Notes under the pieces: generated by a model
Databases searched by the model: none
What the model was told of the DNA's origin: nothing
The model's input: the letters and a program-made list of their open reading frames with translations, nothing else
Position numbers and translations under genes: made by a program
Assembly (NCBI GenBank): GCA_002633005.1
Contig: NMRA01000279.1
Location: 402,422-466,421, forward strand
Origin: Phoronis australis
Taxonomy: Eukaryota > Animalia > Phoronida
DNA length: 64,000 nucleotides
Direction of reading: 5' to 3'
Shown here: piece by piece, positions 1 to 59,709 of the stretch
How positions within the stretch are numbered: position 1 is the stretch's first letter
Layout: each line of letters opens with the position of its first letter

Positions 1-106
1 CATATGCTGAATTTAAAGACCGTACCTGCACCCAATTTGGAGTTATTAAGCCTCAAAGTTGGTCGGAAGAAGAATAAGAAGAATAAGAATAAGAATAAGA
101 AGAATA

Positions 107-480
107 AGAATAAAATTGAAGAAAACCCAGGAACAACAGTACTCTGCGCTTACACGCGCAGAGTAATAAGAATAAAATTGAAGAAAACCCAGGAACAACA
201 GTACTCTGCGCTTACACGTGCAGAGTAATAAGAATAAAATTGAAGAAAACCCAGGAACAACAGGACTCTGCGCTTACACGCGCAGAGTAATAAGAATAAA
301 ATTGAAGAAAACCCAGGAACAACAGTACTCTGCGCTTACACGCGCAGAGTAATAAGAAGAATAAGAATAAAATTGAAGAAAACCCAGGAACAACAATACT
401 CTGCGCATACACGCGCAGAGTAATAAAATTGAAGAAAACCCAGGAACAACAGGACTCTGCGCTTACATGCGCAGAGTAAT
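107..480. repeat. Tandem repeat, 6 copies of a ~62-bp unit with an internal hairpin
   Basis: TAAAATTGAAGAAAACCCAGG recurs at 111, 173, 235, 297, 368 and 424. Each unit has an ACTCTGCG...CGCAGAGT inverted repeat. An (AAG/AAT)n run precedes the array. Confidence 0.95.
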
Positions 481-1086
481 TAGCAAAACGTATCTACCTG
501 GCCCATTGGGAACTGAGGATTCTTGTTATGGATGGATGATGTTCTTGATCCACGGCTGCTGCGACCGTCAACATGGATCACCGTGGTGTAATCCTCCACT
601 GCGTAATACCCACCCGGGACAAAACTTTGCATCGTGGAAGGTTGGTACACTGGAGAAGAGGTCAATTCCTTTAAGAATTTCTTTATAAAGAAGTTTTCAT
701 TATGGAAATAAAAACAGACCACAAACCCGTTTCTCATATACTACGTGGTACTACTGGTCAAATGAACCATGTTTTGACTATTTTTCATATTAACAAGACT
801 TCTGCTGTCATGAATACGGAATGACATTTAACAGGAGCAACAGTTACATTCAAGTAATGTACTGAGATAGCACAACAAGAGCAAGATTAACAAGAAAAGC
901 AGCGTTGATGTTCCACCTTTTGGTTGCGCCACAAACAGAAAAGGTGGATGGCAAAAAATACATTTTCGTTAAGAGGCGCAACTAGGGGGATGGCTGAAAA
1001 TATTGGCATAACTAAACTATCTTGGATACAAACCAACAAAATTTCATTGAAAGGTGATTCTCATCTCCTCACTGCGTGTTTTTAAT

Positions 1087-1379
1087 TTAAGCGATACTGG
1101 GGATCAAGGGGTCGGGATGAGGAATGCCGGCTACAGGTGGCACCTCGACAATGGAGCGGCACCGACGAGTGGATGTCACAATGACCACCATTTGTGACTG
1201 GAGTGGTGGTGCGACATTGGTGGTAACTGGTGGAGGAGAGGCGCAAGGAGACTCGGCATTGACGTGGCAGAAACGAAAGGGGACGTTTAAAAATGAACGC
1301 GTTGGCTGGATAATGCGAAAGTAATGGTGACCGGCAGCACAACATCGGTGATGACAAGGGGGCACCACTATCCAGGTAG
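1087..1379 (-). CDS. Probable last coding exon (frame uncertain; stop at 1087 or 1082)
   Basis: Acceptor tattgtag; GC-richer block; two long open frames. Confidence 0.55.
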
Positions 1380-4300
1380 CTACAATATTAGCTACACCAC
1401 TCTATCACATCCATGCCTTCAAGGGGTTTTAAAGATAGAAAAACGAATGCTGAAGAGTACACGAATGGTGAAGCTATATCAAGGAATCAGCTACATAGAG
1501 ACACACACAAAAAGCAAGGGGGGGGGGCATCAATAGTCAGATGTCCTCGATTCTTGTGCAAGCTAACCTCTCCTTAAACGAAACACGTTTTACAATGCTT
1601 TTTTAAAGCTTTTTTAACAGGTTTGTATGGCAAAAAGGCAGATACCAGATGAGCAGTCAGACAGAAATTCACCCACATATGCAACTGCTGAACATCTAAA
1701 ACCTATAAAGTGCATATCGATAAGTAAACGTTGCAAAGCTGCACAAAACTAACATCTACCTCCGGTTCTGTGCATGCTTATGTCGCTAGCACGATCGCTC
1801 TGACCACCTTTGGGTCTTTTGCCATGTGCAGATTGAGGTTTAAGGTACGCTTCCCTGAAGCTGGCGTTCTGGTGGGCTAGCCTGTGTCCAAAACGAAAAA
1901 CGTTAACATATTGCATGCAGACAAAGTACATAATTTACATCTTATATGGAACTATGCAAAGCCATGTATTAAATACTTCACCAGCCTGAACATCGTCATA
2001 ACTAACAGTTACAAGATTTAGTCATAACAAATTCTTTCCACATCAATGCTGTGCCTCTGTTTGAAAAGATCAGGCAAAGTCGCGATGAATCAATGCAGTG
2101 GCGGACTTAGAGGGGGGCCAAGGGAGACATATCCCCCCACTCCCAGATTCCATTTGTCAGCGAATGTCTGACGGACAAAATCCTGGCTAATACTCTGTCC
2201 TGGCCCACCTCCTAACTCAAAATCCTGGATCCACCCCTGCAATGAATGAGAGTGTCTACCCAGATTTCAGAAGGCCCAGTTTAGTTGGAGCCTTGGATAC
2301 ATTAGTTGACGTGTGGTGGTTGTGCTGACTTTGATGAGTTAACATATTGTTCATACATGTAGTAAAAACGTCGGCCTTGCCAGTTATAATATTACAATTA
2401 TCTCCAACTACTTACTTTACCCGTCATATAGTATAACTAACAACTGTTTTAAATTGTTCAATATTCCTGACAAACAACGATCAAAATCTGGTTTTACACT
2501 AATTTATTTTATTTATTATCTTTTCAATCTAATTGTGTATAGCTGTCTGTATTTTACTTCATGTAATTATTTCCGACTGGGCCCACTTGAAAATCAATGT
2601 ATTCACTGAAGTGGTCACCCCGTCTTTTAACGAATTATAAATAAATAAATTTACATACCACGCATTCCACTTAAATCAGCGACATACACCTATTAAATGT
2701 CATTGTCGTAGTTATACACTTAGATGCTATTCACTTAGCTCAAAAAAGTATTGGTGTTCAATGAATTTTAGTCTCTGATTTTCAGTTCACGAATTTGTCT
2801 TTGTCGCAGTGCCCTATATGCAAACCACTGACATTGTTTATCTGATCCCAAACTACATAATTTTAAAAATAGCTTACTTGTTTTTCCTTTCCCTTTCCCG
2901 TCGGCGTCGGTACCAAAAGCAGATCGACAAACTTACGACGATGACAATGAAAACGAGACCTCCTATGACTGAACCTGTGATAATGGCTACTTCCTCCTGA
3001 GTTGGTCGGCGTTCAACATATTGGCAGATGGCGCCCGTGACACCAGCTGGACAGCTGCAAAACATTTTGTATATGTTGCAAGGATACACGTTGCAAAACT
3101 ACATAATGACACCAGGCCATTAAAGCTGAATTTCACATTGTTTAACTGGCAAAAAACGAAAGTCACGAATGGGGCAATTCACAACTCGTAAAATCAAGTC
3201 GGTCCTAAACTATTCTTTACCTTGACAGGATACTATTTCTGATACCAACAAGAACATGACGACTCAAAAAAAAGCTTCAGACTTAATTGGGGTTGACCAA
3301 CCGCAAAATTGTAAAATTGCAGAATGGAAAATGACGCATATATCGCCTGTGAGTTGGTAATGGAAAATGAAATCTTATCCCGTGAGGCACATTATGAAAC
3401 CGATTTTAAGACAGACCCAATTAAATTTTTGCTTTTTGGCCATGCAGCTAGAGTCGGCAAAATGCAGCTTTAACTGTTAATACTGTTTACAGCTCGATAC
3501 AATTCACAGAAGCAGGTTGGAAATTTTCAGACCAAGATCGCACCCAAACATATTCTTACGTATGAATTTTTGGTCCTTATACACAGGTGTTAATAGCGAA
3601 ACCCTAGAGGGGATGACGGACAATTTGCGATCAAAATGTCTCACCAATGTTGTGTCATATAATTTTGAAATCAACATCATGTTCCAAAACATATCTTAAC
3701 AAACCAGAGCTTCCTCAAATATTTTGGAACAAAAGACATCCGCATTTAAACAATCGTTTTCGTGAAGCCTACCTGCAGTTAACGCTGCCACCTACATCCG
3801 TGCATTTTCCTTTATTTCTGCAGTATTCGCCCAGGCTTGCACAACTTACTGAAACGAAATGAAACAAGACAATAAAGGCGATCAGCCACTGGCCACTCAA
3901 ATTTTGTGAAAAGAAACATTGGCAATCGACAGTCAAGAACCTTTTTGTGTTTTCCTCTATCATTAAAAATCAAAATAATGAGCAGATAAACAGCAACTAA
4001 ACAATGGCTCCCATGGCAAGATAAGCTGGGAATCATGTACTCTTTTTTCCCAGTATTAATAGTGGAGTGAGGTGTTCTGGCGACGTTGGTTTTGTTACTT
4101 TGTCTGAATCCTAGCTCCATTAAAAGATATGAATCTATGCAAGGAATGGAATTGTGACTTCAAATGTTTATCAAAAGGTCGACGATCGTCACACCCACTA
4201 TGTGCACTCACCTGCAGTTGGTTGTGCCGATACTTTTAGTGAACCAACTGTGACCTGGCCATTTTCCGCCACCGCACGAGTAATGTTACGTCGCAACGCT

Positions 4301-7300
4301 TGCTCTTCGTTAGTAGGCAGCACAGCGGTGTTCAAAACAACTTGATGATCCACAACAACGCTTCCACTCCTGCAAGACCCCACACACCCGTTTTACCTTT
4401 CATAGTGTCTCGCAGTTGAACAGGAGGGACTTTCAGACATGGAGTCTGACCGACTATATATAAAACACAACAGCAAACACGCAAAACATGTACAACTAAC
4501 AGGTAAAAATTCTCCAATCTGGGACAGTCTCTAAAACTTGGCACACCGACATTCCAGCAGGAAGTGATTTTTTATTCTGAAAATTGGGACATGATCGATT
4601 TTGGCGTTCATCATATTTCTCAGATTTAGATTTAGATTTAGGACACAGCATTTGGTATCTATAGAGCATTGTTATGGTTCGTGCTCTTTCTGTCTCCTGT
4701 GAGCGGGACACATTGAACTCATTACATGAATTCCTTTTACAGTCAGGATCTTTACCTGAGGTTTGTGACGATCACTTCTTTCAAGTTCTTAATGGTTCTC
4801 TGGTACAACAAAGTCAACTGGAACAAACAAAGAATTCTGTTAAAAGTCGAAGCACAACTGCTGTTTCTTCTTACGGCATTAAGTGAATGACCGCTAAACT
4901 AGCTGCAGCAGAAGGTCAGACACCAAACAAGACTCAGACACGAAGTTTTCTAGTACAATAATTTCAAAAAGCTGGTCTGCCTCAAAGGAAACCCCTTTTG
5001 CACCATTAAACTGTTAAAAAATTTGCGGCATGCAAAAACTTAAAGAAAATTGAGTACAGCATGCTACATAATAACATCAGAGACTTATAGTAAAGAAAGT
5101 ACAACCTTAACATGTTTAACATGACCTGATTGACCAAATTAAATAGTTACTTACACCTCTCTCAATATCCTTCACAAGTTGCTTTGTTTCCAAGTTTGAC
5201 CAATCTTTGTATATGTCCCTGAATGTCAGACCGAGCTTTACAGAAGCATTCACACGAGCTGTTTTTGCTGCAACAGATGAAAGCCACTCAAAATACAACT
5301 GCAGTGTTGGACGAAAAACTCCAAATGAGGGTGACTATCCAAAAATTAGGAGAAACGCAATCCCTGAAATTGTTACCCTCATTCATTCTTCTTCAACAAA
5401 AACCAAACAAAATGCACACCTAAAAACAAACACTGGTTGGAGGTTGTGATTCTCTTTTACAAAAAAATCATTGAAATCTTAGATAAGGTTGCTATAACTA
5501 TGCAAAGCTCAATCGAATCTCATAATGTTAACTTTATCGCACCTTCAGTTGTCGTGATTAGAGCTTTGGGAGTTGAAAGTTGCTGACTGACTGAAGGTTG
5601 TTCAGCTGTAACAGTGGGGTAAGTTGTTGCCTGTTGTTCAGATGTAATGGTCTCTTGAGTCGTTGCCGGTTGCTCAGTTGTGACATGCTGTTGAAGCGTT
5701 GTAGACTCTTCTGATGTAGTAGTCTGTTGAGTTGTTGATACCTGCTCTGGTGTACAGTTTATACCGTCTCCAAGGAAACCAGTGTTGCATTCGCAGGAAA
5801 AGCCGCTACCAGTATTTCTACAAGTGGCATTCCGATGACATTTGCCAGAGCCAGGAGAGCATTCTTTGATATCAATGCACGTTGTTCCGTCACCTGAATA
5901 GCCAACTTTACAGCTACACGAGTAAAGTATGGGTAAATCTGTGCAGATGGCATTGGAACTGCAGTTGGCTGTTTTAAAGGCACACTCCTGTAAGGAATTG
6001 AAGAAGCAATTACTCAAATTAACTCATGACAATTTTGTTACCTGGTGAAACAAAATTTCTTCAAGTAAGTTGCACTGTCAAAAGAATTTAAGTTCTTTGT
6101 TTCTTTGTTCACACGCTACAGATCGCAATTCTTAACGCATTACCATCATGGAAACTACACACAGTATGTGTCACGTGAATTCCTCAAATCCCATTGTTGT
6201 TTTTGGTTAAAATTGGACTCAAGATGGCACTGTATCAGCCATTCTTCTCTTTTTGGTTTGCGGAGACATAGCTCCACTGTTTCTGGTGGGATTTTCCATG
6301 ATTTTTTCTGTGGAAAGATCATTCCAAGAACTATCACTGCTGTGCCATTTGTTTTTATCTAAGTCTTATGTTTCTTGATTTATTTGATTAACGAGGACTG
6401 GTCTCCAAATAATCGAATGTTTTTGCTGTAACTTTGGCTTCCCTTGCTGGATCTGCTTGAATTTGGTATGTGGATGGATTTTTTTCAAGCGCTATCATCA
6501 TTGTAAAGCTGTTTTTTGATACGACTTATAATGTTCTTGCGTTAAATGAGATTTAATGCATAGATGTCTGTTATTTTACTACCTAGTTATTTATAGCTGC
6601 ACTTCGTTAGTCTATCAAATAAGTGCTAGAGATCGCCTTTTTCCACAGATCGACAGGAAATTTACATACATAATGTAACACTGAGTGTTTAGTTAGTCAA
6701 TAACCCAACTGGACTTTTGTTCTTGGGCAAAATCAGACGCAAGATGGCACTGCGACTGCTATTTTATGAATTATGTTTGTTGAGCTCTAGCTCCGTGATC
6801 CTTATTTGACCGAACCTTTGCAAATTTAGTATGTAAACTTCGTTAAAAACACAACTGGACTTTTTGTTTGCATGCTTAATACTGGTACGCTCATAATTTC
6901 AGAACAGTCTCCTTTCTTCAGGTGTGTAAGTATGAAGTAAAACACCCAGAGACATAACAAACAAACTAATTAAAACACTAGCTATATTTCGTGACTGCGT
7001 GTCACATTTTGCCCCTCTTCCTGTCATGTGTATTTTACTGTTTATTTTGCTTTGTATATGTTCATTCCACTCATTGCCTGATGGTGTGAACGAAGGGCTG
7101 CTACCGAAATATAAAAAATTTACTACGTAAATAGATCTCCTCGCAGTCTATCTAATAAGTTGGTGTTTTAAGTGTCGGAATCACGGTTGTTGATGTCCTT
7201 CGATTTCACCAAGTGTTGCTCCTCAGACTGCTTTCATTTACTGAGATAGATGAACTGTAGGCTTACCCTAACACAACGTTAAATCAAACATCCCAAGATA

Positions 7301-9555
7301 CTAAATTGCCAGACCATCTTTGGTGGAATAGTGTGTAAATAAAATTTAAAAACGAAATTTCAATGAAAACAAACTCCATATTTTGTAATGCTTTTTGCTT
7401 TTATAAAAAACTTGGAAAGACTTCAAAAACTAACAAAGGCTTGAGTAAGAGATAGTTCACTTACATCAATCCCAAAACAATCATTGACACCGTCACCAGA
7501 AAGCCCAGCATTGCATTGGCACTTGAAACTTCCTTCAGTGTTCACACACGTAGCATTTGCATGACACAGCGAGCTGGTTTTACATTCGTCGACGTCAGAG
7601 CAGTTAAAACCGTTTCCTTGATATCCTTGATTGCACGTGCAGTCGAAACTACCTGGGGTGTTGGTACACTCAGCGTTCATGTCGCACGTGTCGTCACCCG
7701 TTGCGCATTCGTTCCTGTCTGTTAAATATCAAAACGCTTGATTATCAAACAAGGTTCCGTAGATATGTTACATTTCGCAGTTTTCATTACTGAGAAATGA
7801 CTTCCAAAACAAAACCCTGTATGGCACAAATGTAGGTAGAATCATAGATTATGCAATTTGGGGAAGAAATGTTTGAAATCCAAATGTGATTCATCAGCAA
7901 ATGATCTTGTAGTTCTTTGAGTACTAGACAGCATTGTGAAGAGACGTTTCATGGAGTTCAAAATCTTAACACAGGATTGTCTTGCGGACAGGTTTTCATA
8001 CAGTGTACGGGTGTAGAGACTGTCCTCAACTATCATCATTCGGAGAGCATATGAAAATAATATACAATTTATGAATCGGGTTACGGCTATTTAATAAAAT
8101 ACAGAAAAATAAAAAAGAACATGCATTTATTACTTTTCACTTGAATTTGCAAAAATTAAACTGAGATTGTTATTACAATAACAGTTATTTCATTTTTACT
8201 ACTTCACTTAAGTTTTGAAAAGCACTCGTTACAAGATGATAAAATTGTCCTAAGCCACCATGGAGTGTATGTCTTTTTAAGGCTTAATAATCTTATTTTG
8301 TAAGACATTTTTACTTACCGTTAACCATTTTTTAAACATATCTCGCCAACTTAAACTCCATCCTATACAAAAATCATTCACAATGATCTCAGTTATTTTA
8401 ATCAATAGATCTGTTCTTGGTATTCAAACCACACCACGCAGATAAAATCAAAATTTTAAGCCAAAATGGTATAAATCTAGACACAGAAAAAATCCGCAAG
8501 TTTCAGGCACAAAAAGGGAATCAGTGGAAATTGCCTTAATAAAATGGAAATGCTGATATATTAATAATGAAAATGCTTCGCGATTCAGAACACCACCAGT
8601 AAAAGATACGTCTGACAGACTTTTGTAAGCAATTAGTACACCACCACCAGATGGCAAGACTTACCTACGCATTTGCCACTTGCTCTGACAAATCCGGACT
8701 CACACAAACACGAGTAGGAGCCATTTGTGTTTACGCAGTACTCGTCCGGTGCACAGACACTGGGCAACTTCTTACACTCGTCTACGTCATCAGAGCATCC
8801 CACTCCTGTCCACCCGGCGCGGCAGTTGGTGCAACCAACAGTAGCGTTACAGGTGAGAGCCCTCGTACCGCAATCACAGGTATTGCTACAGTTCCAACCC
8901 CAGTGTAAAGCATCGCAAGCTGCACATAGATGCGTACGGTAGATATAATTGATAGATTACCTTTTTATAAAATATCTCTTGGGTTTGTAATATAAACGAA
9001 TGTACATAATGCAAAAGGGGCGTGCATATGTGTTCAGTATTTTTTCAAAACTCTCAACTGACGAGGAAAATTGTTTTCTCCTGGGGGTTAATAAAGTTGT
9101 CAAATTTAAAGATTATTAATGTAAAACTGCTGCTGCTGATTACACAAAAATGATAAATATTAATGCAAAGAAGTTTTATCTCAGGTCAGGATTTTGTTTA
9201 GATTATATATGCATAATTGTAGTCTTCAACTGATTGAATTAGCTGTATGCATGTTGGCAGGGTTCTTTTGTGTTTAATGACTCCACATCGTCTCATGAAA
9301 TCGTGTATGTTATCCAAACCAAATTCTACATCACACAGTTGCTCAAGTATAAAACAGTTATTTACAGATTTTAAAAACAATTAATATTGTACTTAAAAAC
9401 ACACGAACCACATACATTCACATAGCCTTTATTAGGCATTAAAATACAAAAATGTAAGGTCGCAAATATCCGACCTATTTTGGTGTCAAGTTGTGGAATC
9501 AACTTCTTATTAATATAAACAACATTTATGTTTCCACGTTGAGAAAGTTAATAAG

Positions 9556-9605
<50 letters not shown>

Positions 9606-51600: not shown

Positions 51601-54600
51601 ATATGTATGTTGGGGCATATTATCACCATCCTGTCAAGGAGTACCCCCGCTCGATATCTCATCAACCCTGGTCCGAACTTAAAAAAATTTGGGACAAATA
51701 TGTTACAACGGTGTATGTCATTTTTCAATCTACCGGCCCTCAGGGTCACAGGGATGGGCTTTTCAGGTTTTTGGGGAGGGAGATGATGGACAGATTTCAA
51801 CGAAAATTGACAGAAAAATAAGTGACGGCAATGGGCTTGCACCTATAGCCATTTAGCTGTCGACAATATTCTTTTTCAGCTGCATGTTTTTAGGAAGAAA
51901 GTTTCCGGGTGATAACAACACAATAATTGAATTGAAAAACATACATGTATTTCATTGAAACTTGACACGTAGGTGCGTAACGGTATTGCGCCAGCATCAT
52001 TTCATTTTGGGACAGCTTTGAGCTCTGCAACTCCCCTTGTGGCCATCTTGTCTGGTTGTCATGTTTTCCCGTTGTTTGCTCGATACTTCAAAAACTCTTG
52101 GCCCCGGGTTCTATTTGTTTTACCCAAATTCGAATTTGGAATTAATGGGCCTTTTCAAGACTTGTTATAAGAAATAGCGATTCAGAATATCTAGAAAACT
52201 GATCAACGGATTTTAGTAAATCTCGACACAGAGGTAGGTGACAGCAATCGGCCTACACCAGCCCATTTTCCGACAAATTTGATCTGTACAGCACCCTCTG
52301 GTGGCCGTTTTGGTTTCGACTAGGTGCTTTTCACCACTTGTTGAGGGAAAAGAGTTTCCGGGTGATGTCTAGAGAACCAATTGACGGTTTTCAATGGAAC
52401 TTAACTCACCGGTATGCGGCAGCAATGTGCCACGATAAACTAGCCTTTTCGGGTGTTAAAAAATGTCATTGCATCTTCCTATGGTATGTATTATACGTGA
52501 TGATGATATTAGGGAATATTGAAACGTCGCGATATGAAGCAGAGCGTTTTGTTTGTAAATCACGCCCGTATAAATTATGTTTAAGCCGCAAATAACTGAT
52601 CTACACCGTTAAAAGTTAATTTATGCCACAGATTATTGATTTACAACATAGAAAAATTATGTCTCAAATAATTTTAATTAAAATTAAAATTAAAGTTAAA
52701 ACTTTCGCCATAAATAGCAAATTTATGCAAGTAATTTGTGAAACGTTCACGCCATTTGGCCAATGATAGAGACATACACTTTGCGGCTCTCTCGAGGCGC
52801 ATATCTGCACTTCCTCTTGCTGTTGTTAAATCACATAACAATGCTGTTGCAAACACAGAAGTCAGGGCTGTGGATGTGAAATTAGCTATGAGGGACCTAG
52901 GCCGAGCTATTCGACATAGTTTTTGATGAAAGAAAGAAGAACACGAAGAACTAGTCTTGAGGTAGAAAGTCCATAGATTTTGCAAAGGAACTGAATTTTT
53001 GACACGTAAATTGTCACGTACCTTACTGCCATCTTTCATTACAGACAGCCACGTCATCACGACAGACTCAGATATTGCCGGTGACATTTCAATTACTTCC
53101 GACACATATCCCAACTCAGGAACAGAATGTTGAAACCAGTCAGTGTAACCTAAAATAATGAATATGAGAAGTTCTGTGACGCATCCTGGAACACGAGGAG
53201 AATCCAATTCTATGAATTCTTGGACTTAGACTAAATGTTACTTCGATCTCACTCAATGACCGACGTAGATTTGTCGAATAACACCTGGGAGTTATACCTT
53301 TTTCATGTTATCATACTCTTTGGTAATGAATTGCATTGAACTGCATTCTTGCTCTGTCATAATAAAGAGCCTACATCTATTGTCGCACGCAACTTTTCGT
53401 CTCTGCAAACAGAGCACGCGCTCGTACTGTACAATACACAACTTCGTTGATCCGCAAGTTGGTCATGTCTGAATTTGAACACAAAAATGGCGAAGCAAAT
53501 GGAGAAGTTAAATGCCTTTGGATGTATATTACAAGAGCAACGCAGAGCGTTGAAATGCTTCCACGAATGTATCGCAAATGGTGTGCTTTTAGGGTTACTT
53601 ATTTGTATCATCAAAATGGCCACTAGATGGCTCAAAATACATCGAATCCATCTGAAAACCAAAAAATGTCATACCTTTTTTAAAGGAAAGCCACTTATCA
53701 AATTTCAATAAAATTCGTCGAGGAACTTCAGAGAAACAGAGGAAAACGTAAAAAAAAGGAATTGCCACCAGGGGGCACAACGGTACACCGATCTGTCCGA
53801 AAGTCGTGGTCTTCCGTTGTCAACTTCATATATTTATACATTTGCTAAATTTAATAAAGATCCTGTTCAACGTTTAGGAGATACAGCCATGGCCGCAAAA
53901 ACAAACAAAACTGTCACTAGGAGGCGCCACAGAAGTCGAAGTCGTCGGAAAATCATCGTCAACTGTCTTCATCACAGTACGAACATACATGCCAATTTTC
54001 ACAATCATCCTTAGAGTGGCTTGGTTGTTAGAAGGGCGGACGCCAAAAAACGACTCGAAAATAGTAAAAATGGCCACTAGATGGCGCAAAATGTCTCGAA
54101 TCCATCCGAAAACGAGAGGATAGTGTTAACTCATTAATAGATGCCTATGTGCCAAATTTCATGAAAATCGGTCTATAACCTTTGAAGACAGAAAGCCAAA
54201 CGTAAAAAACTAAAATTGCCACTAGGGGGCACAGCGGTATTTGGGTCGGTCTGAAGCACGTCGCCCTCTATGGTCAACCCCATAAGAACATACCTGCCAA
54301 ATTTCAAAAATATCCTGCAAGGGGTTTAGGAGATACAGCCGCGGACGCCAGACGCCCGGACGCCCAGACAGAGATGACGGCAATATGCGAACACATATAA
54401 ATATGGACGCATAAAAATTGGATAATTTTATTACGAGGGATATAGAATATGATGACACAGTGTGCAAGTCTCGATGAAACACAGGTGAAAATCCCAATAC
54501 CAATAACAAGAAAGTCGATAATGAAAACGTGGTTATACATAAAGAGCTGATGGACCACAATGTTATTATGGACACTGTGTTCAAATGAGCTTTTCCTATT

Positions 54601-57600
54601 TTAGACATCTATATTCCGAGTTGCTATGTGTATCTCTGCTTACCTTGCCGAAGACAATATGGCGATTGGCCTAATGGAAAGAACAGACTGTCCGACGGGC
54701 AGCGACAGGAAGGCTTCATACCTAAGACAGTATAGCCAAAGGATTCCTCTTTGATAGACACATCTTGACATACCACTTCTTTCGCGCGACAGACGCTGCT
54801 TGTTCCGCAGCGACACTCCATGCGGTAGCCCGAATTCTCATTTCCGAAAAAGGAGTAAGTTGTACTGACGTTCGTGCACACAGCATTTGTGACTTCATAC
54901 CTTTGACTACAATCATCATCCACGCTGCAGTGAGATGTTAGTATAAACGCAGAATTGGCTGTAAAAAACATCACAATATTTGGATCAACTGGGAAGTTTT
55001 ACCAAGAAAAGATTTGTTACCGTTGGGTACCCAATTTGTACATTCCAGTTTCAAGTGCTCTGAATAGACGTCACACCTAACTTTTCAAAACGACATCTTA
55101 CAGTCACTTCTGAGTGATTAACATTCATACTAAGAATAAGCCAGCTCGTATGGTTTCGTTTATGATTTTTCTCAGTCCCAGTTTATTTTAGATAACAGAG
55201 GTAGGCTAACTGATTATTATCTCGAAATTCACTTGTTTTCGCAAGAAAAGCAAGGGCCTTCCAATAGAAATGCCATAACTCAGGTAAAACATGTGGGTCC
55301 TTAAAACACGAACGCCCCCCGTGTTGCTTTTGCTCTCAATCTATTCAGATGTCTAAAAAGAAAAATACTTCTTTAGTGAACATCGAGTCACAAATTTCAT
55401 GTACACTGGAGCCCGTTTCAATTATCTTTTAAATTTAAGTTTCTCGATATTTTGAGATTTAAGGATAGGATTTCAATTAATGTCGCGACATAACATGATA
55501 ACGCAGGGTATCCGGCTGACAGCGTTTGTAAGTAGTCCTGCACACTTTTCGTTTCATTTCTCTCCCTTCGTGAGTCCCTGCGGATGGGCATGAGCTGTCT
55601 TGCAACATCTCTTGTGGCGCTTCTTATTGCCCATCTTACCAGAGATTACCTATTATACGTTATTTACCTGTATTCATTTTATTGTAATTATACTAGTCAT
55701 AATAAATGACCTTATTCCACAATATTAGCGTCAAATGGCAGATACAACCGTATAATAACCCATAAAGTTATCTCACTAGTGAGATAACAATTTGGCGGAA
55801 AACCGAGGACGGAGTCGAACACGGGACCTTGAAATAGCTGGTCGCCGACTTTACCACTACACCATGCAGCGACTGACGTCATCAAGAGTGAAAATAAAAT
55901 ACTTAAATGAGCACGCGCAATAATCGCATGTTCAACAAACCGCATTGTACAGTACTTGTACGCTAAAAAAAATAAATAATATCTTAATTCAGTGAAAAAT
56001 TTCTCTCATGTCCTCTTACTTGTAAATCGTCGATCTACAGTTTGAATACGGGTATCGTGTTGTCAGGATCTTTGACTTAAGAATTATATTCAGTTACCAG
56101 TGGTAACCTACTTTAGCAGACGATAATTTCCCGGTCGAAGCTTAGCGTGAAAAAACGTGTTTTAAGCTATAATAGTTGGTAAACCTTAATTTATAAATTC
56201 AATTTATTTCTATTATATTTAAGTTTTCAATTGGTTTTGAGTAAAAGCATTATTTGACAAAAATAGCCCGGCTTTTCTTAAAAGGTCAGGACCTCCGACC
56301 CCGGGCCTCTGACAAAGAAAGTAGTTACAAAGCCGTGGAGAGTCAGAAAAGGTAAATCGATTCATTGCAATGTTTCTCGTTTAGTATGTGGTATAATGAG
56401 ATTGATGGCACTCTGACATAAATCCTATTATTTGGGCAAATAACATTAGACAGCCCTTCATGCTTCATATCCAACTCCTAGTTAGTTCCTACCAAGTCCG
56501 ATGGTAGCGCTATTTGTTCTTTCTCTCCAGCTTCCTGTTGGCCCAGCCACAAGAAACAGTACGTTCACTCGTAAGTTTTCCTAATTAGCCAATTTTATAC
56601 TTCTCCCACCCTCCCTACCCTGGGTACCACGACATCTCCACTCAACCGATTCATACCTTTCCCACACCCCCCCTTTTGTCGAACAAAATCTGCTGTTGGT
56701 TATTGTTGTTTTTGCAGTCCCTGCTGGTAGCTTCTTCAGGCCTAGAGCGTGATACCGTCCGGCAAGAACCGACGTCATTGGCTAACGACCCGACCTGTAC
56801 TCGAGCATCCATCACTGCAGCTTGCTTCTCTCCACCCCGGTCACAGCTCTCGGCACATACTGAGCCACAACACCACGTTCCTTACAATATCTCTTTTTAT
56901 CACTCCGGCTGGTCTGCTCACTCAGCTTGTCCGGAACCCTGCTTTGCAGGTTGTTATAGCCCAGTTGGCTGTTTAGTGTACCCACTTGGTACTTTATATG
57001 ATATTTGGCCATTTGGCAGTTTGTACCCGCTTGGTACTTGTTATTGAATTTGCCGTTTTGCTCGACCCAGTTGGTAGGCAATCGGCCAATACCCATTTGG
57101 TATTATGTACCCATTTGGTACTATTGCTAACCTGTGCCACTCAGCATCCGATACTCAATTGTACTTTGGGTATCGGAAATGTGTGTGTTATCTCTTGTAA
57201 TTAAGGAACCCATCTGGTTCCTTCTGTGAAATATTTATTTGTAGAGCTGTGACCCTGAAATTCCCAATACAACTTAAAATATACATTATTCTTGTTGTTT
57301 TATTTGTCCCCAATAAATAGATTATTACATGTTCTCAGCCGTTATCCCCCTTATCTAAAACCCTCGTGGATTTTGTAGAATTATCACCCTCGGGGCTAAC
57401 GCCCCTCGGGCGACAATTCTCCAAAATCCACTCGGGCTCCAGATAACGGGGGATAACGACTTCGCCACGTAATAATCTATATTTATATCGCTTACTTCGG
57501 TCTCCTTTTCATCTCTGGTAACGAGATTGCGACGCACGTACCATTTATCTATTATTCGGGACATATGTCGATCATAAAAAACAGTATGTGCAATGAAATA

Positions 57601-59709
57601 ATAATAACAGTAACAATAATAATAATAAAAATAATCAGCAACAATAAAAATAACAATAAAAGTAAAAAGGGAACCTTCCACACTATTTTTGAACTTCGGA
57701 AAGCTTCGGACAGCTAACACTCTTGAACAAGAGATCAAAATTGACATCCGAAGTTAATTACGCCTAACTTCGCAAGATAAACTGGGGTTCCTGAATACTT
57801 TCGTTTTCGTCTTATTTGTCTTGGTGTTACCTGCCTGCGTTTACTAGAAAATGTCTAAAGAAAACATTTAGGCAAACTTTCACAGTAATGTTTAGTAGCC
57901 GCGTGCTTGAAGCACATACATGTACAATAAACAAACAATGTGGCCGATTTAACCGGTGTGTTACTCTTACTGTATGACTACAGGACAGCAACGTAAACAA
58001 AAGTCAGCGACAGTAGAAAGACGCAATCCGAAAAGGCGCAACCACAATTTTCAGGTATTCACATTTCTTGAACATGAATTAAGCACCGTTTTGTCTGTAC
58101 GACAGACCACATTAATTTACACTTCCCCATCAGTTATGCCAGTTTGTTTGCGTAAAGCGCTACCTGTTGAGAATTCGACCAGCCAATCAGAAACACCGGA
58201 TTAAAAAAAATTACCGAGGAAAATTAAATGCAACCTGCGTGTGTTCTCTACCACCTATCGACACGCAGGGAACTAATGAGCTTTTTCAACACAGGTTTTC
58301 ACAACCAATAGTTCAGTGAAAAATGCAAAATCTTTACGTCTTACTTTGCGGCCGATGCCGGGAAATTGCGTGTAACGTAAATGCGAGTACGTACTATTGT
58401 AAAAATAAGCTACCGCAGCAGCAAACAATCTACCGTACCCTATCGAAAAACTAACATGAAAACTCAAATAGAACTTAGAGACGAACCAAAAATATTTTAC
58501 TAAGCCCGCTAACAGTCTAACGTCAAGTTAACAATCAAACTACACTATAATCGAACTAAACAACTTCAGGTGTTGTTGAACAATATAACAGGTAAAGGTG
58601 GAAGTGGGTTGTATCTCTTTTTGGTTGTATGTATGGCAAGACTCTTCACAGTCTATGCATAAAATACAAGTTCACGGACAACCCCGACAGTTTTCAGCGC
58701 CAAAATATGAAACCGAATCACTGAATGCTTACATGCAGCGTAGTTAGCGATGAATGGAGTAGATACCTGAATGTGCAACTGGGATTCTTTGGTCAACTTA
58801 TTGACTGGTATCGGATTACAATATAATACGTTTAGGATGCGGAACGTGAGCATGACCCTAAACTTGGCGAGTTTTCGAAATTACGAAGGTCCATTAGTGC
58901 CAAGAAAAAATAAGTTTGAATCTCTTATTACGATTGCCGGCGTAATAATTAACTGATTGCCAATCTGTACATAACAGATTCATATTTAATTTTTTTTCTC
59001 CACTGTAGGATTTCGTGCGTCATTGAGTGTAAGATGAGAATACTTTCTACAGTTTTATCCATACAAAAATTCCAAGTCCTCTGACCGATTCGCAAAGCAT
59101 TTTCAGCATTGCATTGTTATGAAATCTGGAAATGACCATTTTCAAGGAATTCGGTCAAAAACACTGGAAAAACTAACCACGCCTGAAGTAAGCTAATTTT
59201 TACTGCTTCATAATCGAAGCATGTGACTTAGTAGGATATTAGTTTCAAGTATTTAGTATGAAGACAATTCCCAAATCACTTAGCACCTGATTAAACACCA
59301 CGAGCACACGGCTCAGTCAGGTAATGGCCTGGTACATGGCTTGTGAAGACGCCTGGTTGCGTTGAAAAGCTTTATGAAACTGTATAATTAAAAGTTCAAA
59401 TCAATGTTGATAAACCCGGTGGCGATCGATGTAATCTGATCCGCTGACAAAGGAGTTTTACGACTGACTGTGGGCACTGTGTGACGAGCGACTTATTAAC
59501 ACCAAGCAATGCCCGCGTCCGCGATCATTCGTCAAGATTGAGTTAACGCTGTAGCAACACCACATGAAAGTCACGAACAAAACAAGGAGCCACTGGTGAA
59601 TACTTTTCAGACTTATAACGCTGTTCAATTTCTGTTTCTATTTTTACTCACCGTAACAACTACGCAGTGATACCAAGATAAACGCTGACAGGAGAAAAAC
59701 ACGACCCAT
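1087..59709 (-). CDS. Multi-exon gene (~45 coding exons, ~2,700 aa): MUC4/SUSD2/Mesh-like type I membrane mucin (NIDO-AMOP-vWD-EGF-SEA-TM) with N-terminal helical repeats
   Basis: Manually chained exons have GT-AG boundaries and compatible phases from the signal-peptide exon (59652-59709) through the TM exon (2878-3054) to the tail. Summed CDS is about 8.2 kb. The frame of the last exon is uncertain. Confidence 0.8.
1754..1881 (-). CDS. Exon: cytoplasmic tail
   Basis: [21 protein letters not shown]...; two possible phase-1 donors (exon start 1754 or 1760). Confidence 0.7.
2096..2239. mobile_element. Short MITE (CAGTGGCGGA...TCCACCCCTG termini)
   Basis: Imperfect TIRs flanked by the direct repeat CAATG. 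Confidence 0.45.
2878..3054 (-). CDS. Exon: EGF end, transmembrane helix and basic stop-transfer
   Basis: [11 protein letters not shown]...[36 protein letters not shown]. Confidence 0.92.
3773..3848 (-). CDS. Exon: juxtamembrane EGF, first part
   Basis: [24 protein letters not shown]; phase 1-2. Confidence 0.85.
4212..4369 (-). CDS. Exon: SEA domain 2, part 3 with GSVVV
   Basis: [13 protein letters not shown] is the SEA autoproteolysis motif. Confidence 0.9.
4756..4817 (-). CDS. Exon: SEA domain 2, part 2
   Basis: [21 protein letters not shown]; phase 0-2. Confidence 0.85.
5155..5267 (-). CDS. Exon: SEA domain 2, part 1
   Basis: [38 protein letters not shown]. Confidence 0.85.
5543..5987 (-). 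CDS. Exon: two EGF domains plus Thr/Gln-rich mucin-like stalk
   Basis: ECAFKTANC...DIKECSPG...[17 protein letters not shown]...; phase 0-1. Confidence 0.9.
7465..7718 (-). CDS. Exon: two Ca-binding EGF domains
   Basis: DRNECATG...[12 protein letters not shown]...DVDECKT...[12 protein letters not shown]...CFGID; phase 1-0. Confidence 0.9.
8665..8919 (-). CDS. Exon: laminin/MEGF-type EGF plus Ca-binding EGF
   Basis: [17 protein letters not shown]...[17 protein letters not shown]...[16 protein letters not shown]. Confidence 0.9.
9558..9610. repeat. (TA)n microsatellite
   Basis: Direct observation. Confidence 0.95.
9864..9992 (-). CDS. Exon: Ca-binding EGF
   Basis: [43 protein letters not shown]. 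Confidence 0.9.
10345..10470 (-). CDS. Exon: EGF
   Basis: [41 protein letters not shown]. Confidence 0.9.
12325..13320 (-). mobile_element. Decayed non-LTR retrotransposon 3' fragment (CR1/L2/Daphne-like)
   Basis: [11 protein letters not shown]...L.VEVGRF...IC....[14 protein letters not shown] is the typical ORF2 C-terminal Cys/His region; (AAAT)n tail near 12325-12340. Confidence 0.7.
13431..13559 (-). CDS. Exon: EGF
   Basis: [39 protein letters not shown]; not in the ORF track. Confidence 0.9.
14211..14333 (-). CDS. Exon: Ca-binding EGF
   Basis: [41 protein letters not shown]. Confidence 0.9.
14564..15848 (+). mobile_element. DINE-1/HINE-like non-autonomous element, copy 1
   Basis: 5' AACAAGAG; subterminal ATGCGCCCAC inverted against the 3' hairpin ATGCGACCACATA-TAAA-TATGTGGGCGCAT; ~150-bp internal core repeats; GGAC-type microsatellite; ends in an A-run. 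Confidence 0.8.
15862..16029 (-). CDS. Exon: EGF-like
   Basis: [15 protein letters not shown]...CTDVP...[10 protein letters not shown]...CV. Confidence 0.9.
16251..16608. mobile_element. MITE with ~86-bp near-perfect TIRs and TA flanks
   Basis: 16251-16336 is inverted at 16523-16608; TA dinucleotide on both sides. Confidence 0.85.
17131..17306 (-). CDS. Exon: end of cadherin-like domain and EGF-like start
   Basis: [11 protein letters not shown]...SCKNDA...[10 protein letters not shown]; phase 2-1. Confidence 0.85.
17581..17800 (-). CDS. Exon: cadherin/Ig-like beta domain
   Basis: NQVPPVVTG...[15 protein letters not shown]...VEWTP; phase 1-2. Confidence 0.85.
19104..19340 (-). CDS. Exon: post-vWD C8-like segment
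   Basis: FLPLFIDEL...[24 protein letters not shown], typical of MUC4/SUSD2. Confidence 0.9.
19400..19436 (-). other. Degenerate Penelope-type minimal hammerhead-like motif
   Basis: TCC-CTTTATAA-A-GAGCG cgt CGCTC-GAAA-CGTT-GGGA: stems I and II and GAAACGUU are intact; the CUGAUGA core is altered. Confidence 0.5.
19635..19823 (-). CDS. Exon: vWD C-terminus
   Basis: [23 protein letters not shown]...FYMGQSW matches the vWD GLLGN..G...DDF motif. Confidence 0.9.
21185..21298 (-). CDS. Exon: vWD
   Basis: GVDVYVNN...SAIAGFNSG; phase 1-1. Confidence 0.85.
22346..22570 (-). CDS. Exon: vWF type D domain start with GDPH
   Basis: [25 protein letters not shown]...FQLQGRTER...[10 protein letters not shown]. 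Confidence 0.92.
23070..23292 (-). CDS. Exon: AMOP domain
   Basis: [11 protein letters not shown]...[10 protein letters not shown]...CRLFHKKRP...FLPPR; typical AMOP CCY / D..P..WCC / RP..C(G)..Y.PP. Confidence 0.9.
23624..23868 (-). CDS. Exon: NIDO end and AMOP start
   Basis: NGKWIYRLD...KCLTWAEN...CPPT...QCFFF; phase 1-0. Confidence 0.85.
24036..25419 (+). mobile_element. Internally deleted pogo/Tigger-like DNA transposon
   Basis: Imperfect ~24-bp TIRs (CCAGGGTTTCCGTAGATAAGCCC / GGGCTTATTTACGGAAAACCCCGG). Frameshifted [10 protein letters not shown]...[28 protein letters not shown] plus an acidic tail resembles the pogo transposase C-terminus (~24820-25130). Confidence 0.65.
26961..27180 (-). 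CDS. Exon: NIDO domain part 2
   Basis: [20 protein letters not shown]...VFAGY matches the NIDO TFQxVLxTDG..SFVxFNY motif. Confidence 0.9.
27455..28597 (+). mobile_element. Diverged DINE-1/HINE-like copy (a further fragment lies at ~26460-26830)
   Basis: TGAAATGCGCCCACGA start motif, GCCACTAGAGGGCAC cores, 3' CAGACAGAGATCACTGCAATATG...GTGAGCGCA. Confidence 0.65.
28651..28956 (-). CDS. Exon: NIDO domain part 1
   Basis: VKLDGLIGL...FLAPFW...[14 protein letters not shown] are NIDO hallmark motifs. Confidence 0.9.
29729..29868 (-). CDS. Exon: pre-NIDO segment
   Basis: [12 protein letters not shown]...[14 protein letters not shown]; phase 1-0. Confidence 0.8.
30172..30291 (-). CDS. Exon: EGF-like domain
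   Basis: [37 protein letters not shown]; six-Cys EGF pattern. Confidence 0.9.
31280..31431 (-). CDS. Exon: SEA-like domain 1, C-terminal half
   Basis: [15 protein letters not shown]...[24 protein letters not shown]; phase 2-1. Confidence 0.7.
31950..32115 (-). CDS. Exon: SEA-like domain 1, N-terminal half
   Basis: [25 protein letters not shown] matches the SEA-type F..L...S..Y pattern; phase 1-2. Confidence 0.75.
33062..33418 (-). CDS. Exon: unrecognised ~119-aa extracellular domain
   Basis: [18 protein letters not shown]...[28 protein letters not shown]; phase 1-1. Confidence 0.8.
33736..33762 (-). CDS. 27-bp microexon (GIRKPCAKP), phase 1-1
   Basis: ttttgcag|...CCAG|gtaaca; frame-preserving. 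Confidence 0.55.
34266..34423 (-). CDS. Exon: helical repeat 3, exon D (phase 2-1)
   Basis: [52 protein letters not shown]. Confidence 0.75.
35252..35469 (-). CDS. Exon: helical repeat 3, exon C (phase 0-2)
   Basis: [21 protein letters not shown]...[16 protein letters not shown]; 218 bp, the same length as repeat-1 exon C. Confidence 0.8.
36242..36424 (-). CDS. Exon: helical repeat 3, exon B (phase 0-0, Cys pair)
   Basis: [45 protein letters not shown]...; acceptor AAG, donor gtgag. Confidence 0.75.
36698..36825 (-). CDS. Exon: helical repeat 3, exon A (phase 1-0)
   Basis: [43 protein letters not shown]; 128 bp, the same length as repeat-1 exon A. Confidence 0.8.
37358..37500 (-). CDS. Exon: helical repeat 2, exon D (phase 2-1)
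   Basis: [47 protein letters not shown]; phases fit. Confidence 0.75.
37723..39018 (+). mobile_element. DINE-1/HINE-like element, copy 2
   Basis: Same termini and core repeats as 14564-15848. Confidence 0.8.
39782..39984 (-). CDS. Exon: helical repeat 2, exon C (phase 0-2)
   Basis: [24 protein letters not shown]...[15 protein letters not shown]; canonical splice sites. Confidence 0.8.
40342..40551 (-). CDS. Exon: helical repeat 2, exon B (phase 0-0, Cys pair)
   Basis: [31 protein letters not shown]...[30 protein letters not shown]. Confidence 0.8.
41116..41180 (-). mobile_element. tRNA-derived SINE head
   Basis: A box TGGCTTAGAGG and B box GGTTCGAATCC at tRNA-like spacing; no full cloverleaf. 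Confidence 0.6.
41664..42450 (-). mobile_element. 5'-truncated RNase H-bearing non-LTR retrotransposon with a 15-bp TSD
   Basis: RNase H motifs IVATDGSF...GWG...[10 protein letters not shown]...FATDS...W.FVP...ERADYLA; 3' tail (ACAGGTATT)x2; TSD GAACTCAATGCGGTA at 41649-41663 and 42451-42465. Confidence 0.85.
42692..42825 (-). CDS. Exon: helical repeat 2, exon A (phase 1-0)
   Basis: [45 protein letters not shown]. Confidence 0.8.
43301..43422 (-). CDS. Exon: helical repeat 1, exon D (phase 2-1)
   Basis: [40 protein letters not shown]; not in the ORF track; phases fit both neighbours. Confidence 0.75.
44725..44856 (-). pseudogene. THAP zinc-finger-like N-terminal fragment (DNA transposon remnant)
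   Basis: [33 protein letters not shown] matches THAP MP.CC...C.N...GISFF.FP; it then frameshifts. Confidence 0.5.
44913..48130 (-). mobile_element. Degenerate Ty3/Gypsy LTR retrotransposon internal region (gag-PR-RT-RNase H; no integrase or LTR pair seen)
   Basis: gag [10 protein letters not shown]; protease-like [12 protein letters not shown]; [11 protein letters not shown]...MGMPGSE...KLADDL; RNase H LWIVTDAS...WLPC.VEA.AIA...LTDSKP; many frameshifts; tRNA-Leu-like PBS TGGTGGTAGCG at 48120-48130. Confidence 0.88.
48333..48550 (-). CDS. Exon: helical repeat 1, exon C (phase 0-2)
   Basis: [22 protein letters not shown]...LQGLANL; acceptor cgcag, donor gtgag. Confidence 0.8.
51110..51316 (-). 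CDS. Exon: helical repeat 1, exon B (phase 0-0, Cys pair)
   Basis: [24 protein letters not shown]...[20 protein letters not shown]; canonical splice sites. Confidence 0.8.
51552..52555 (-). mobile_element. Related HINE-like repeat in the opposite orientation, with different termini
   Basis: Internal ~150-bp repeats with GCACCCTCTGGTGGCC (reverse of the core motif), a terminal hairpin next to a GT/G run and an ambiguous base at 51551. Confidence 0.45.
53022..53149 (-). CDS. Exon: helical repeat 1, exon A (phase 1-0)
   Basis: [29 protein letters not shown]...KDGSK; canonical splice sites. Confidence 0.8.
53531..54417 (+). mobile_element. DINE-1/HINE-like element, copy 3
   Basis: Same termini as copy 1; five core repeats. 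Confidence 0.8.
54644..54958 (-). CDS. Exon: Cys-rich extracellular module (CSVDDDC...CRCG...CRCP...YC)
   Basis: 315 bp, phase 1-1, acceptor tttttacag and donor gtaag. Confidence 0.8.
55803..55870 (-). mobile_element. tRNA-derived SINE head or tRNA pseudogene
   Basis: A box TGGTGTAGTGG and B box GTTCGACTCC; acceptor stem not intact. Confidence 0.45.
56960..57175. repeat. Degenerate short repeat cluster (TGTACCC[A/G][C/T]TTGGTA)
   Basis: Motif variants recur at about 56978, 57022, 57062, 57089 and 57106. Confidence 0.6.
57317..57480. mobile_element. ~165-bp foldback (palindromic MITE-like) element
   Basis: ATAGATTATTAC...CGTTATCCCCC...GTGGATTTTG...AGAATT pairs with AATTCT...CAAAATCCAC...GGGGGATAACG...GTAATAATCTAT. 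Confidence 0.75.
59652..59709 (-). CDS. Exon: signal peptide [19 protein letters not shown](A)
   Basis: GCCATGG start context, basic residue plus hydrophobic core plus small residues. Donor G|gtgagt is phase 1 and fits the next exon. Confidence 0.75.

What the first reader, a model, noticed from the sequence alone, without database searches (positions are those of the whole stretch)
1087..59709. MUC4/SUSD2-like membrane mucin fused to ABCA-extracellular-domain-like helical repeats (possible tethered or shed lipid-binding receptor)
Seen: a signal-peptide exon splices in frame through about 680 aa of amphipathic helical repeats into SEA-EGF-NIDO-AMOP-vWD-EGF-SEA-TM, with no stop or second signal peptide. 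Known: MUC4 carries a PTS region and SUSD2 a somatomedin-B region N-terminal to this core, not helical repeats. Each repeat's Cys pair ([12 protein letters not shown]...[19 protein letters not shown]...[18 protein letters not shown]...LTQLVC) resembles, from memory, the ABCA ECD1 segment (ABCA4-type ACSEALLERFIIF...VRYALC) that helps form a lipid-filled tunnel. No ABC nucleotide-binding or multi-TM exon is present. Inference: an ABCA-ECD-like lipid-binding module was shuffled onto an autoproteolytic epithelial mucin, a combination I do not recognise.
Basis: partly seen in the sequence, partly recalled or inferred. Interest (0 to 1): 0.85.

Follow-up and report, generated by a model that had tools for sequence, protein, structure and literature searches.

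The report
ABCA-like lid cassettes on membrane mucin
An animal gene encodes a MUC4-type cell-surface protein whose front end is three helical cassettes likely copied from the extracellular lid region of ABCA lipid pumps, so it would be a pump-less, possibly sheddable lipid-holding protein.

Summary
The gene is real: 44-45 minus-strand exons, all introns GT-AG, one frame of about 2,700 aa with one signal peptide and one TM. RNA covers every exon from cassette 3 to NIDO and shows 6 of 9 junctions there, but not the key one leaving cassette 3. The helical part is three 4-exon cassettes with identical intron phases; their sequences are only weakly alike. No sequence or fold search hit ABCA. However, three consecutive exons match ABCA4 exons 4-5-6 in phase (2,1,0,0) and size (122-143/128-134/183-210 versus 140/128/198 nt), and the Cys pair sits where ABCA4 Cys205/Cys230 sit (rough chance 1 in 700 to 1 in 17,000). 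That ABCA4 segment is the lid, unmodelled in cryo-EM, rather than the tunnel. Best reading: an ABCA ECD1-derived cassette, tripled and shuffled onto a self-cleaving MUC4-like stalk; lipid binding is inferred. No homologue, paper or earlier finding of this scan describing it was found.

The parts
59652..59709 (-). Exon 1, signal peptide (alternative ATG 15 nt upstream)
   Evidence: hydrophobic ATG-led segment, phase-1 GT donor; no RNA laid here
54644..54958 (-).
   Evidence: no Pfam or PDB hit of weight
43301..53149 (-). Helical cassette 1 (aa 125-349): exons a 53149-53022 (128 nt), b 51316-51110 (207 nt, Cys pair), c 48550-48333, d 43422-43301
   Evidence: phases 1-0-0-2-1; no RNA laid here
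37358..42825 (-). Helical cassette 2 (aa 350-579): a 42825-42692, b 40551-40342 (210 nt, Cys pair), c 39984-39782, d 37500-37358
   Evidence: phases 1-0-0-2-1; sense RNA depth in the bin holding exon b; d-to-next-a join seen as a loose end of 3 reads in X3
34266..36825 (-). Helical cassette 3 (aa 580-808): a 36825-36698 (128 nt), b 36424-36242 (183 nt, Cys pair), c 35469-35252, d 34423-34266
   Evidence: RNA joints a-b and c-d listed, b-c not listed
33736..33762 (-). Possible 27-nt mini-exon, phase 1-1
   Evidence: AG/GT and in frame; about 49 read bases in its bin in X2 only
33062..33418 (-).
   Evidence: RNA depth in 3 of 3 read runs and joint to SEA exon; 0 hits; Atlas hits all under 0.9; model pLDDT 34.6
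31280..32115 (-). Putative SEA domain 1 (two exons, no GSVVV)
   Evidence: RNA joint listed; identity inferred from position and phase 1-2-1, not detected by Pfam
30172..30291 (-). EGF domain
   Evidence: Pfam EGF 33.2 bits; joint to NIDO listed
26961..29868 (-). NIDO domain (three exons)
   Evidence: Pfam NIDO 39.1 bits; joints
23070..23868 (-). Putative AMOP domain (two exons)
   Evidence: position and recalled Cys/Trp pattern; not detected by Pfam on single exons
19104..22570 (-). vWD domain with GDPH autocleavage motif, then C8-3_MUC4 domain
   Evidence: Pfam VWD 17.1 and 22.8 bits on two exons (cut-off 22.9), C8-3_MUC4 40.9 bits; GDPH at aa 1465
5543..17800 (-). Ig-like domain, EGF/EGF-Ca array, short Ser/Thr/Pro-rich stretch
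   Evidence: Pfam EGF families on the three exons scanned; 47% S/T/P over 72 aa
4212..5267 (-). Putative SEA domain 2 with GSVVV cleavage-type motif
   Evidence: motif at aa 2451; not detected by Pfam on single exons
1082..3848 (-). EGF, single transmembrane helix (exon 3054-2878) and cytoplasmic tail; last exon ambiguous
   Evidence: hydropathy; sequence

Best explanation
This is an expressed animal gene whose exons read as one 2,700-residue single-pass membrane protein with a MUC4-type NIDO-vWD-EGF stalk and three tandem helical cassettes that are likely derived from the lid region of ABCA transporter ECD1 and would hold lipid passively. Shown: the reading frame, phases, RNA support for most junctions between cassette 3 and NIDO, amphipathic helices, one Cys pair per cassette, GDPH, no ATPase or multi-TM part. 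Inferred: (1) the cassette-3 to stalk junction; (2) origin from an ABCA gene: exons d-a-b correspond to ABCA4 exons 4-5-6; exon c (phase 0-2) would be a duplication junction, which predicts that the donor already had tandem copies, and the unit was cut at the phase-1 intron and inserted as a 1-1 module; (3) each cassette would fold as a disulfide-pinned hollow helical sleeve that binds lipid or a lipoprotein without pumping; (4) cleavage at GDPH and in the second SEA would let the outer part be shed into mucus or matrix.
For: One frame, all GT-AG, one TM. RNA: 16 of 16 exon-overlapping bins have sense depth, 11 of 14 intron-only bins have none, 6 of 9 junctions listed, and X2 depth is 3.1-3.7 on exons 12-14 and 16. 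No signal-peptide-like ATG in 34265-33419. Threefold phase order, P=0.0007. ABCA4 exon 4/5/6 = 140/128/198 nt, phases 2,1,0,0 (boundaries from passages of PMC7544654); 2 of 41 exon triplets of the model match in phase and within 15% in size, both inside the cassettes; the remaining a-b pair is 128/207 nt. Cys positions within exon b (from start / to end): 14 and 42/27, 20 and 46/24, 14 and 34/27, against ABCA4 15 and 40/26, a predicted disulfide (passages of PMC11305421). ABCA lid is hollow and flexible (PMC7932691 passages); ABCA1 ECDs hold lipid through amphipathic helices (PMC5906560 passages). MUC4 GDPH cleavage: PMC8660890 passages.
Against: No ABCA chain at E<=10 in 7 PDB sequence searches with cassette exons or their 3-row profiles; no Pfam family for any of 12 cassette exons; no protein hit for the b-exon profile (limited to 124-2,000 aa). 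Exon c (0-2, 203-218 nt) does not match ABCA4 exon 7 (0-0, 90 nt). The 15% size tolerance was chosen after seeing the sizes, and only ABCA4 (plus one ABCA1 boundary) was compared. Three of 9 junctions were not listed, among them the one leaving cassette 3; exon 14 has zero depth in X1 and X3. In ABCA1, lipid loading of the ECD needs ATPase activity, which this protein lacks. No orthologue was found, so conservation of the fusion is unknown.
Confidence: 0.5

Rival explanations
1. One gene, but the cassettes are an unrelated amphipathic helical repeat; the match to ABCA4 exon layout is chance.
For: All direct sequence searches negative; exon c does not fit; helix-Cys-loop-Cys-helix patterns are common (own knowledge).
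Against: Phase, size and Cys-position match was a test of a hypothesis set beforehand; rough chance 6e-5 to 3e-4 with three lengths, about 3e-4 to 1.4e-3 if the length of exon b is left out (my arithmetic); two of three a exons are exactly 128 nt.
Confidence: 0.22
2. The cassettes are ABCA-derived but no longer bind lipid; they serve as a helical spacer, oligomerisation or protein-binding cap on an adhesion or matrix protein.
For: ABCA ECD base, ECD2 and the pump are absent; lipid loading of ABCA1 ECD is ATP-dependent; invertebrate MUC4-like proteins carry varied N-terminal protein-interaction modules (CUB, ZP, FN3; PMC9080433 passages); cassettes have diverged strongly from each other.
Against: Amphipathicity is kept in all three cassettes (Z 3.3, 4.2, 2.0) and so is the Cys pair.
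Confidence: 0.18
3. Two neighbouring genes: a secreted cassette protein ending near 34260 and a separate MUC4-like gene.
For: The junction leaving 34266 is not listed; exon 14 has no depth in X1 or X3; a stop follows the donor directly and an ATTAAA lies at 34032.
Against: Zero depth in bin 33872-34159 where a 3' UTR would lie; even depth across the junction in X2; no second signal peptide; phases fit; the 27-nt mini-exon could split junction reads below the 3-read listing threshold.
Confidence: 0.1

Closest known systems
MUC4 and invertebrate mucin4-like proteins (PMC8660890, PMC9080433; passages read)
   Same: Signal peptide, NIDO, putative AMOP, vWD with GDPH, C8-3_MUC4, EGFs, single TM; a C-terminal SEA is also reported in anemone mucin4-like proteins.
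   Different: No N-terminal PTS tandem repeat; instead a 10-Cys module, three helical cassettes, an unknown domain, SEA and EGF. Reported invertebrate N-terminal additions are CUB, ZP and FN3, not helical cassettes.
ABCA4/ABCA1/ABCA7 ECD1 lid and adjoining tunnel helices (PMC7932691, PMC9890230, PMC11305421, PMC7544654; passages read)
   Same: Three consecutive exons with phases 2,1,0,0 and like sizes; Cys pair placed as Cys205/Cys230; extracellular amphipathic helices.
   Different: No detectable sequence hit; no NBD, no multi-pass TMD, no ECD2, cleavable signal peptide in place of TM1; three tandem copies; next exon has phase 0-2.
SUSD2 / Drosophila Mesh (recalled, not tested by a call)
   Same: NIDO/AMOP/vWD-type single-pass surface protein.
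   Different: No somatomedin-B or sushi domain was seen among the exons scanned; EGF array and SEA domains instead.

Membership tests
MUC4-like membrane mucin | NIDO domain | tested here: met
   Pfam PF06119 39.1 bits, cut-off 25
MUC4-like membrane mucin | AMOP domain | tested here: inconclusive
   No Pfam hit on either single exon; position and recalled pattern fit
MUC4-like membrane mucin | vWD with GDPH site and C8-3 domain | tested here: met
   VWD hits on two exons just under cut-off, C8-3_MUC4 40.9 bits; GDPH
MUC4-like membrane mucin | EGF domains, single TM, cytoplasmic tail | tested here: met
MUC4-like membrane mucin | Large N-terminal PTS tandem-repeat region | tested here: not met
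   Cassettes 15-19% S/T/P; best 100-aa window 40%, near the membrane
MUC4-like membrane mucin | Autocleavage and epithelial surface location | not testable with these tools
   motifs only
ABCA transporter | Two nucleotide-binding domains | tested here: not met
   No Walker A or LSGG motif in the model; no ABC family among 42 ORFs scanned
ABCA transporter | Two multi-pass TMDs | tested here: not met
   one TM segment
ABCA ECD1 lid-derived module | Exon phases and sizes as ABCA4 exons 4-6 | tested here: met
   2 of 41 triplets match, both in cassettes; third a-b pair 128/207 nt
ABCA ECD1 lid-derived module | Cys pair placed as Cys205/Cys230 in the phase 0-0 exon | tested here: met
   3 of 3 cassettes within 6 residues of the ABCA4 positions
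ABCA ECD1 lid-derived module | Following exon as ABCA4 exon 7 (0-0, 90 nt) | tested here: not met
   0 of 3; exon c is 0-2, 203-218 nt
ABCA ECD1 lid-derived module | Sequence similarity to ABCA ECD1 | tested here: inconclusive
   No ABCA hit at E<=10 with 42-70-residue queries or 3-row profiles; whole cassettes could not be submitted
ABCA ECD1 lid-derived module | Same fold | tested here: inconclusive
   69-aa model pLDDT 55.9; the lid is unmodelled in ABCA4 and ABCA7 structures
ABCA ECD1 lid-derived module | Hollow interior that binds lipid | not testable with these tools
   amphipathicity only

The most novel reading that the evidence does not exclude
The ABCA ECD1 lid, the part that cryo-EM cannot resolve, is an autonomous, mobile lipid-binding module: it was tripled and exon-shuffled out of an ABC pump onto a self-cleaving mucin, giving a tethered or shed lipid carrier of a kind not described in animals.
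Probability: 0.45. Interest if true: 0.8.

Novelty: new variant of a known kind. Interest (0 to 1): 0.62.

Why it matters
If true, a piece of the ABCA extracellular domain works outside a transporter. That would define the lid as a folding unit with natural boundaries, offer a soluble and possibly more rigid version for structure work on a region that carries disease variants in ABCA4 yet is missing from the cryo-EM models read here, and test whether these helices hold lipid without an ATPase. It would also add a lipid-handling branch to the MUC4-like surface proteins of invertebrates.

Tried and rejected
No whole genome was held, so no search for a donor ABCA gene or paralogues. Word-based protein searches with the b-exon profile, the NIDO exon and the vWD exon gave 0 hits among 1,815, 100 and 34 candidates, all limited to 2,000 aa, shorter than this protein. 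phmmer of the 119-aa domain against 1.84 billion representatives: 0 hits at E<=0.001. Atlas for that domain: best 0.84, low recognition, lead only; the Atlas gave no answer for a b exon. AlphaFold of the 119-aa exon alone: pLDDT 34.6, not searched. AlphaFold of exon 1b with a 3-row alignment: pLDDT 55.9, five helices; Foldseek 0 matches at E<=0.001 and VIA-align best Z 3.8, no ABCA among rows shown: uninformative. A c-exon profile hit a yeast PKA chain at E=0.005; rejected as likely chance (one kinase only, cytosolic, 9 searches run). Metagenome scan with the NIDO exon gave 3 loci of 53-54% GC and 38-39% identity, not orthologues. No listed run was an indexed RNA holder; the runs were laid directly. 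The first lay was swamped by intronic repeats. A stretch at 35984-35661 looked like a b-exon start but had no RNA depth and no tblastn match to b exons. Literature searches for this fusion found no describing paper in the listings (listings and abstract starts only; closed journals not covered). Earlier-findings look-ups gave nothing relevant.

Full report
Observation. The window is intron-rich animal DNA of about 40% GC; no genome was held. From stop-free segments and splice sites I built a minus-strand model of 44 exons (2,691 aa), or 45 with a 27-nt mini-exon (2,700 aa). Every intron is GT-AG, the only stop is the last codon, and hydropathy shows one TM segment near the C-terminus. Order: signal peptide; 10-Cys module; three helical cassettes (aa 125-808); 119-aa unknown domain; putative SEA; EGF; NIDO; putative AMOP; vWD with GDPH; C8-3; Ig-like; EGF array; short S/T/P stretch; putative SEA with GSVVV; EGF; TM; tail. 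Pfam confirms NIDO, C8-3_MUC4 and EGF above cut-off and VWD just below; SEA and AMOP were not detected on single exons and are named from position and recalled motifs.

One transcript? Three 2026 RNA read sets and one contig set with the same species label were laid on two stretches; about a fifth of each read run was read. On 28400-37030 all exon signal is on the strand expected for a minus-strand RNA; 16 of 16 bins that overlap model exons have depth, and 11 of 14 intron-only bins have none. Six of 9 junctions are listed: 36698-36424, 35252-34423, 33062-32115, 31950-31431, 30172-29868, 29729-28956. Two flanking joins are seen otherwise: 37358-36825 as a loose end of 3 reads (29 of 30 letters match by my reading) and 28651-27180 in a contig. 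Not listed (threshold 3 reads): 36242-35469, 31280-30291 and the decisive 34266-33418. In X2 the depth is 3.3, 3.1, 3.7 and 3.6 on the exons either side, with 1.8 on the mini-exon; in X1 and X3 exon 14 has no depth. The bin just past the donor (33872-34159) is empty in all runs and no signal-peptide-like ATG lies in 34265-33419. One gene is therefore likely (about 0.9) but the bridge is not shown.

The cassettes. Twelve exons fall into three blocks with the same phase order 1-0-0-2-1 (permutation P=0.00066), so the unit is a phase 1-1 module of about 230 aa. Sequence similarity between copies is weak (whole-cassette Z 0.5-3.0; best like-for-like exon pairs Z 3-4, with some unlike pairs as high). 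All three are amphipathic-helical (Z 3.3, 4.2, 2.0), and the low-confidence model of exon 1b is all helix.

ABCA link: direct tests. Only unbroken exons could be submitted. Seven PDB sequence searches, Pfam on 12 of 12 cassette exons, a word search with the b profile and two fold searches on a pLDDT-56 model gave no ABCA match. These tests are weak: queries of 42-72 residues, and the matching ABCA region is unmodelled in ABCA4 (residues 138-271, the lid; PMC7932691 passages) and ABCA7 (PMC9890230 passages).

ABCA link: gene-structure test. Variant names in PMC7544654 (passages) give ABCA4 exon 4 = c.303-442 (140 nt, phase 2-1), exon 5 = c.443-570 (128 nt, 1-0), exon 6 = c.571-768 (198 nt, 0-0, Phe191-Val256) and exon 7 = c.769-858 (90 nt, 0-0). 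In the window, d-a-b read 122/134/210 and 143/128/183 nt with phases 2,1,0,0, and the first a-b pair is 128/207 nt. Two of 41 exon triplets in the model match in phase and within 15% in size, both in the cassettes. ABCA4 Cys205 and Cys230, a predicted disulfide (PMC11305421 passages), are residues 15 and 40 of exon 6, 26 from its end; the window's pairs are 14/42, 20/46 and 14/34, with 27, 24 and 27 to the end. A rough null from this gene's other exons gives 6e-5 to 3e-4, or about 3e-4 to 1.4e-3 without the length of exon b; the tolerance was chosen afterwards and the copies are not independent. ABCA1 has the matching phase-0 boundary at c.543 (PMC12524468 passage). Exon c does not match ABCA4 exon 7. 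Since ABCA4 exon 3 ends in phase 2 and exon 7 starts in phase 0, a 0-2 exon is what a tandem duplication with breakpoints in those exons would leave; this is inference, and it predicts a donor ABCA with repeated units. A residue-level likeness to ABCA4 is recalled only and was not tested. I put ABCA origin at about 0.7.

Mechanism. In ABCA4 the tunnel is a helical barrel and the lid is hollow and mobile; ABCA1 ECDs are proposed to wrap lipid in amphipathic helices, with loading dependent on ATPase activity (PMC5906560 passages). Here three such units would sit at the tip of a long stalk with no pump, so the likely role is passive capture or presentation of lipid or lipoprotein, with release by GDPH cleavage as proposed for MUC4 (PMC8660890 passages) or SEA cleavage (recalled). 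The alternative is a structural or protein-binding cap. None of this was tested.

Comparison and novelty. The stalk is of a known kind; anemone mucin4-like proteins carry CUB, ZP or FN3 at the N-terminus and sometimes a C-terminal SEA (PMC9080433 passages). It is not a true mucin by the PTS criterion and not an ABC transporter. Six literature searches (listings only) and five look-ups of earlier findings showed no description of this fusion; no homologue was retrieved, so it may be lineage-restricted or simply absent from these collections. No supplementary files were read. Also consulted as passages without bearing: 10.1101/817767, PMC13607428. Verdict: new variant of a known kind, interest 0.62.

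Noticed in passing
window 44900-47970 (minus), intron 5: Remains of an LTR-type retroelement, broken by stops and frame changes; RT_RNaseH Pfam hits at 45743-44916; no long terminal direct repeats found.
   Followed up: partly
window 42083-42454 (minus), intron 7: RNase H fragment (Pfam PF00075), probably from a second, non-LTR element.
   Followed up: partly
window 14560-15850, 37720-39020, 53530-54420, and by eye 27600-28300: Diverged copies (67-79%) of one dispersed repeat in introns; thousands of RNA reads from other loci fall on the 37700-39000 copy.
   Followed up: partly
window 54644-54958 and 33062-33418: Two phase 1-1 exons encoding modules with no family in any search: a 10-Cys module and a 119-aa, probably beta-rich domain.
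   Followed up: yes
window 22560-22545 (aa 1464-1468): An RGD triplet overlaps the GDPH site; significance unknown.
   Followed up: no
window 30704-31279: Low sense-strand RNA depth in X2 in an intron between SEA 1 and EGF: unspliced RNA or an unmodelled exon.
   Followed up: no
window 32531-32565: 35-nt intronic piece hit by mostly antisense reads with loose ends on both sides: a repeat fragment.
   Followed up: no
window 94-483 and 51551: Tandem repeat of about 62-nt units downstream of the gene; the single N of the window lies in intron 3.
   Followed up: no
window 39782-39984 (exon 2c): Profile of the c exons matched a yeast PKA C-terminal stretch at E=0.005; treated as chance.
   Followed up: partly
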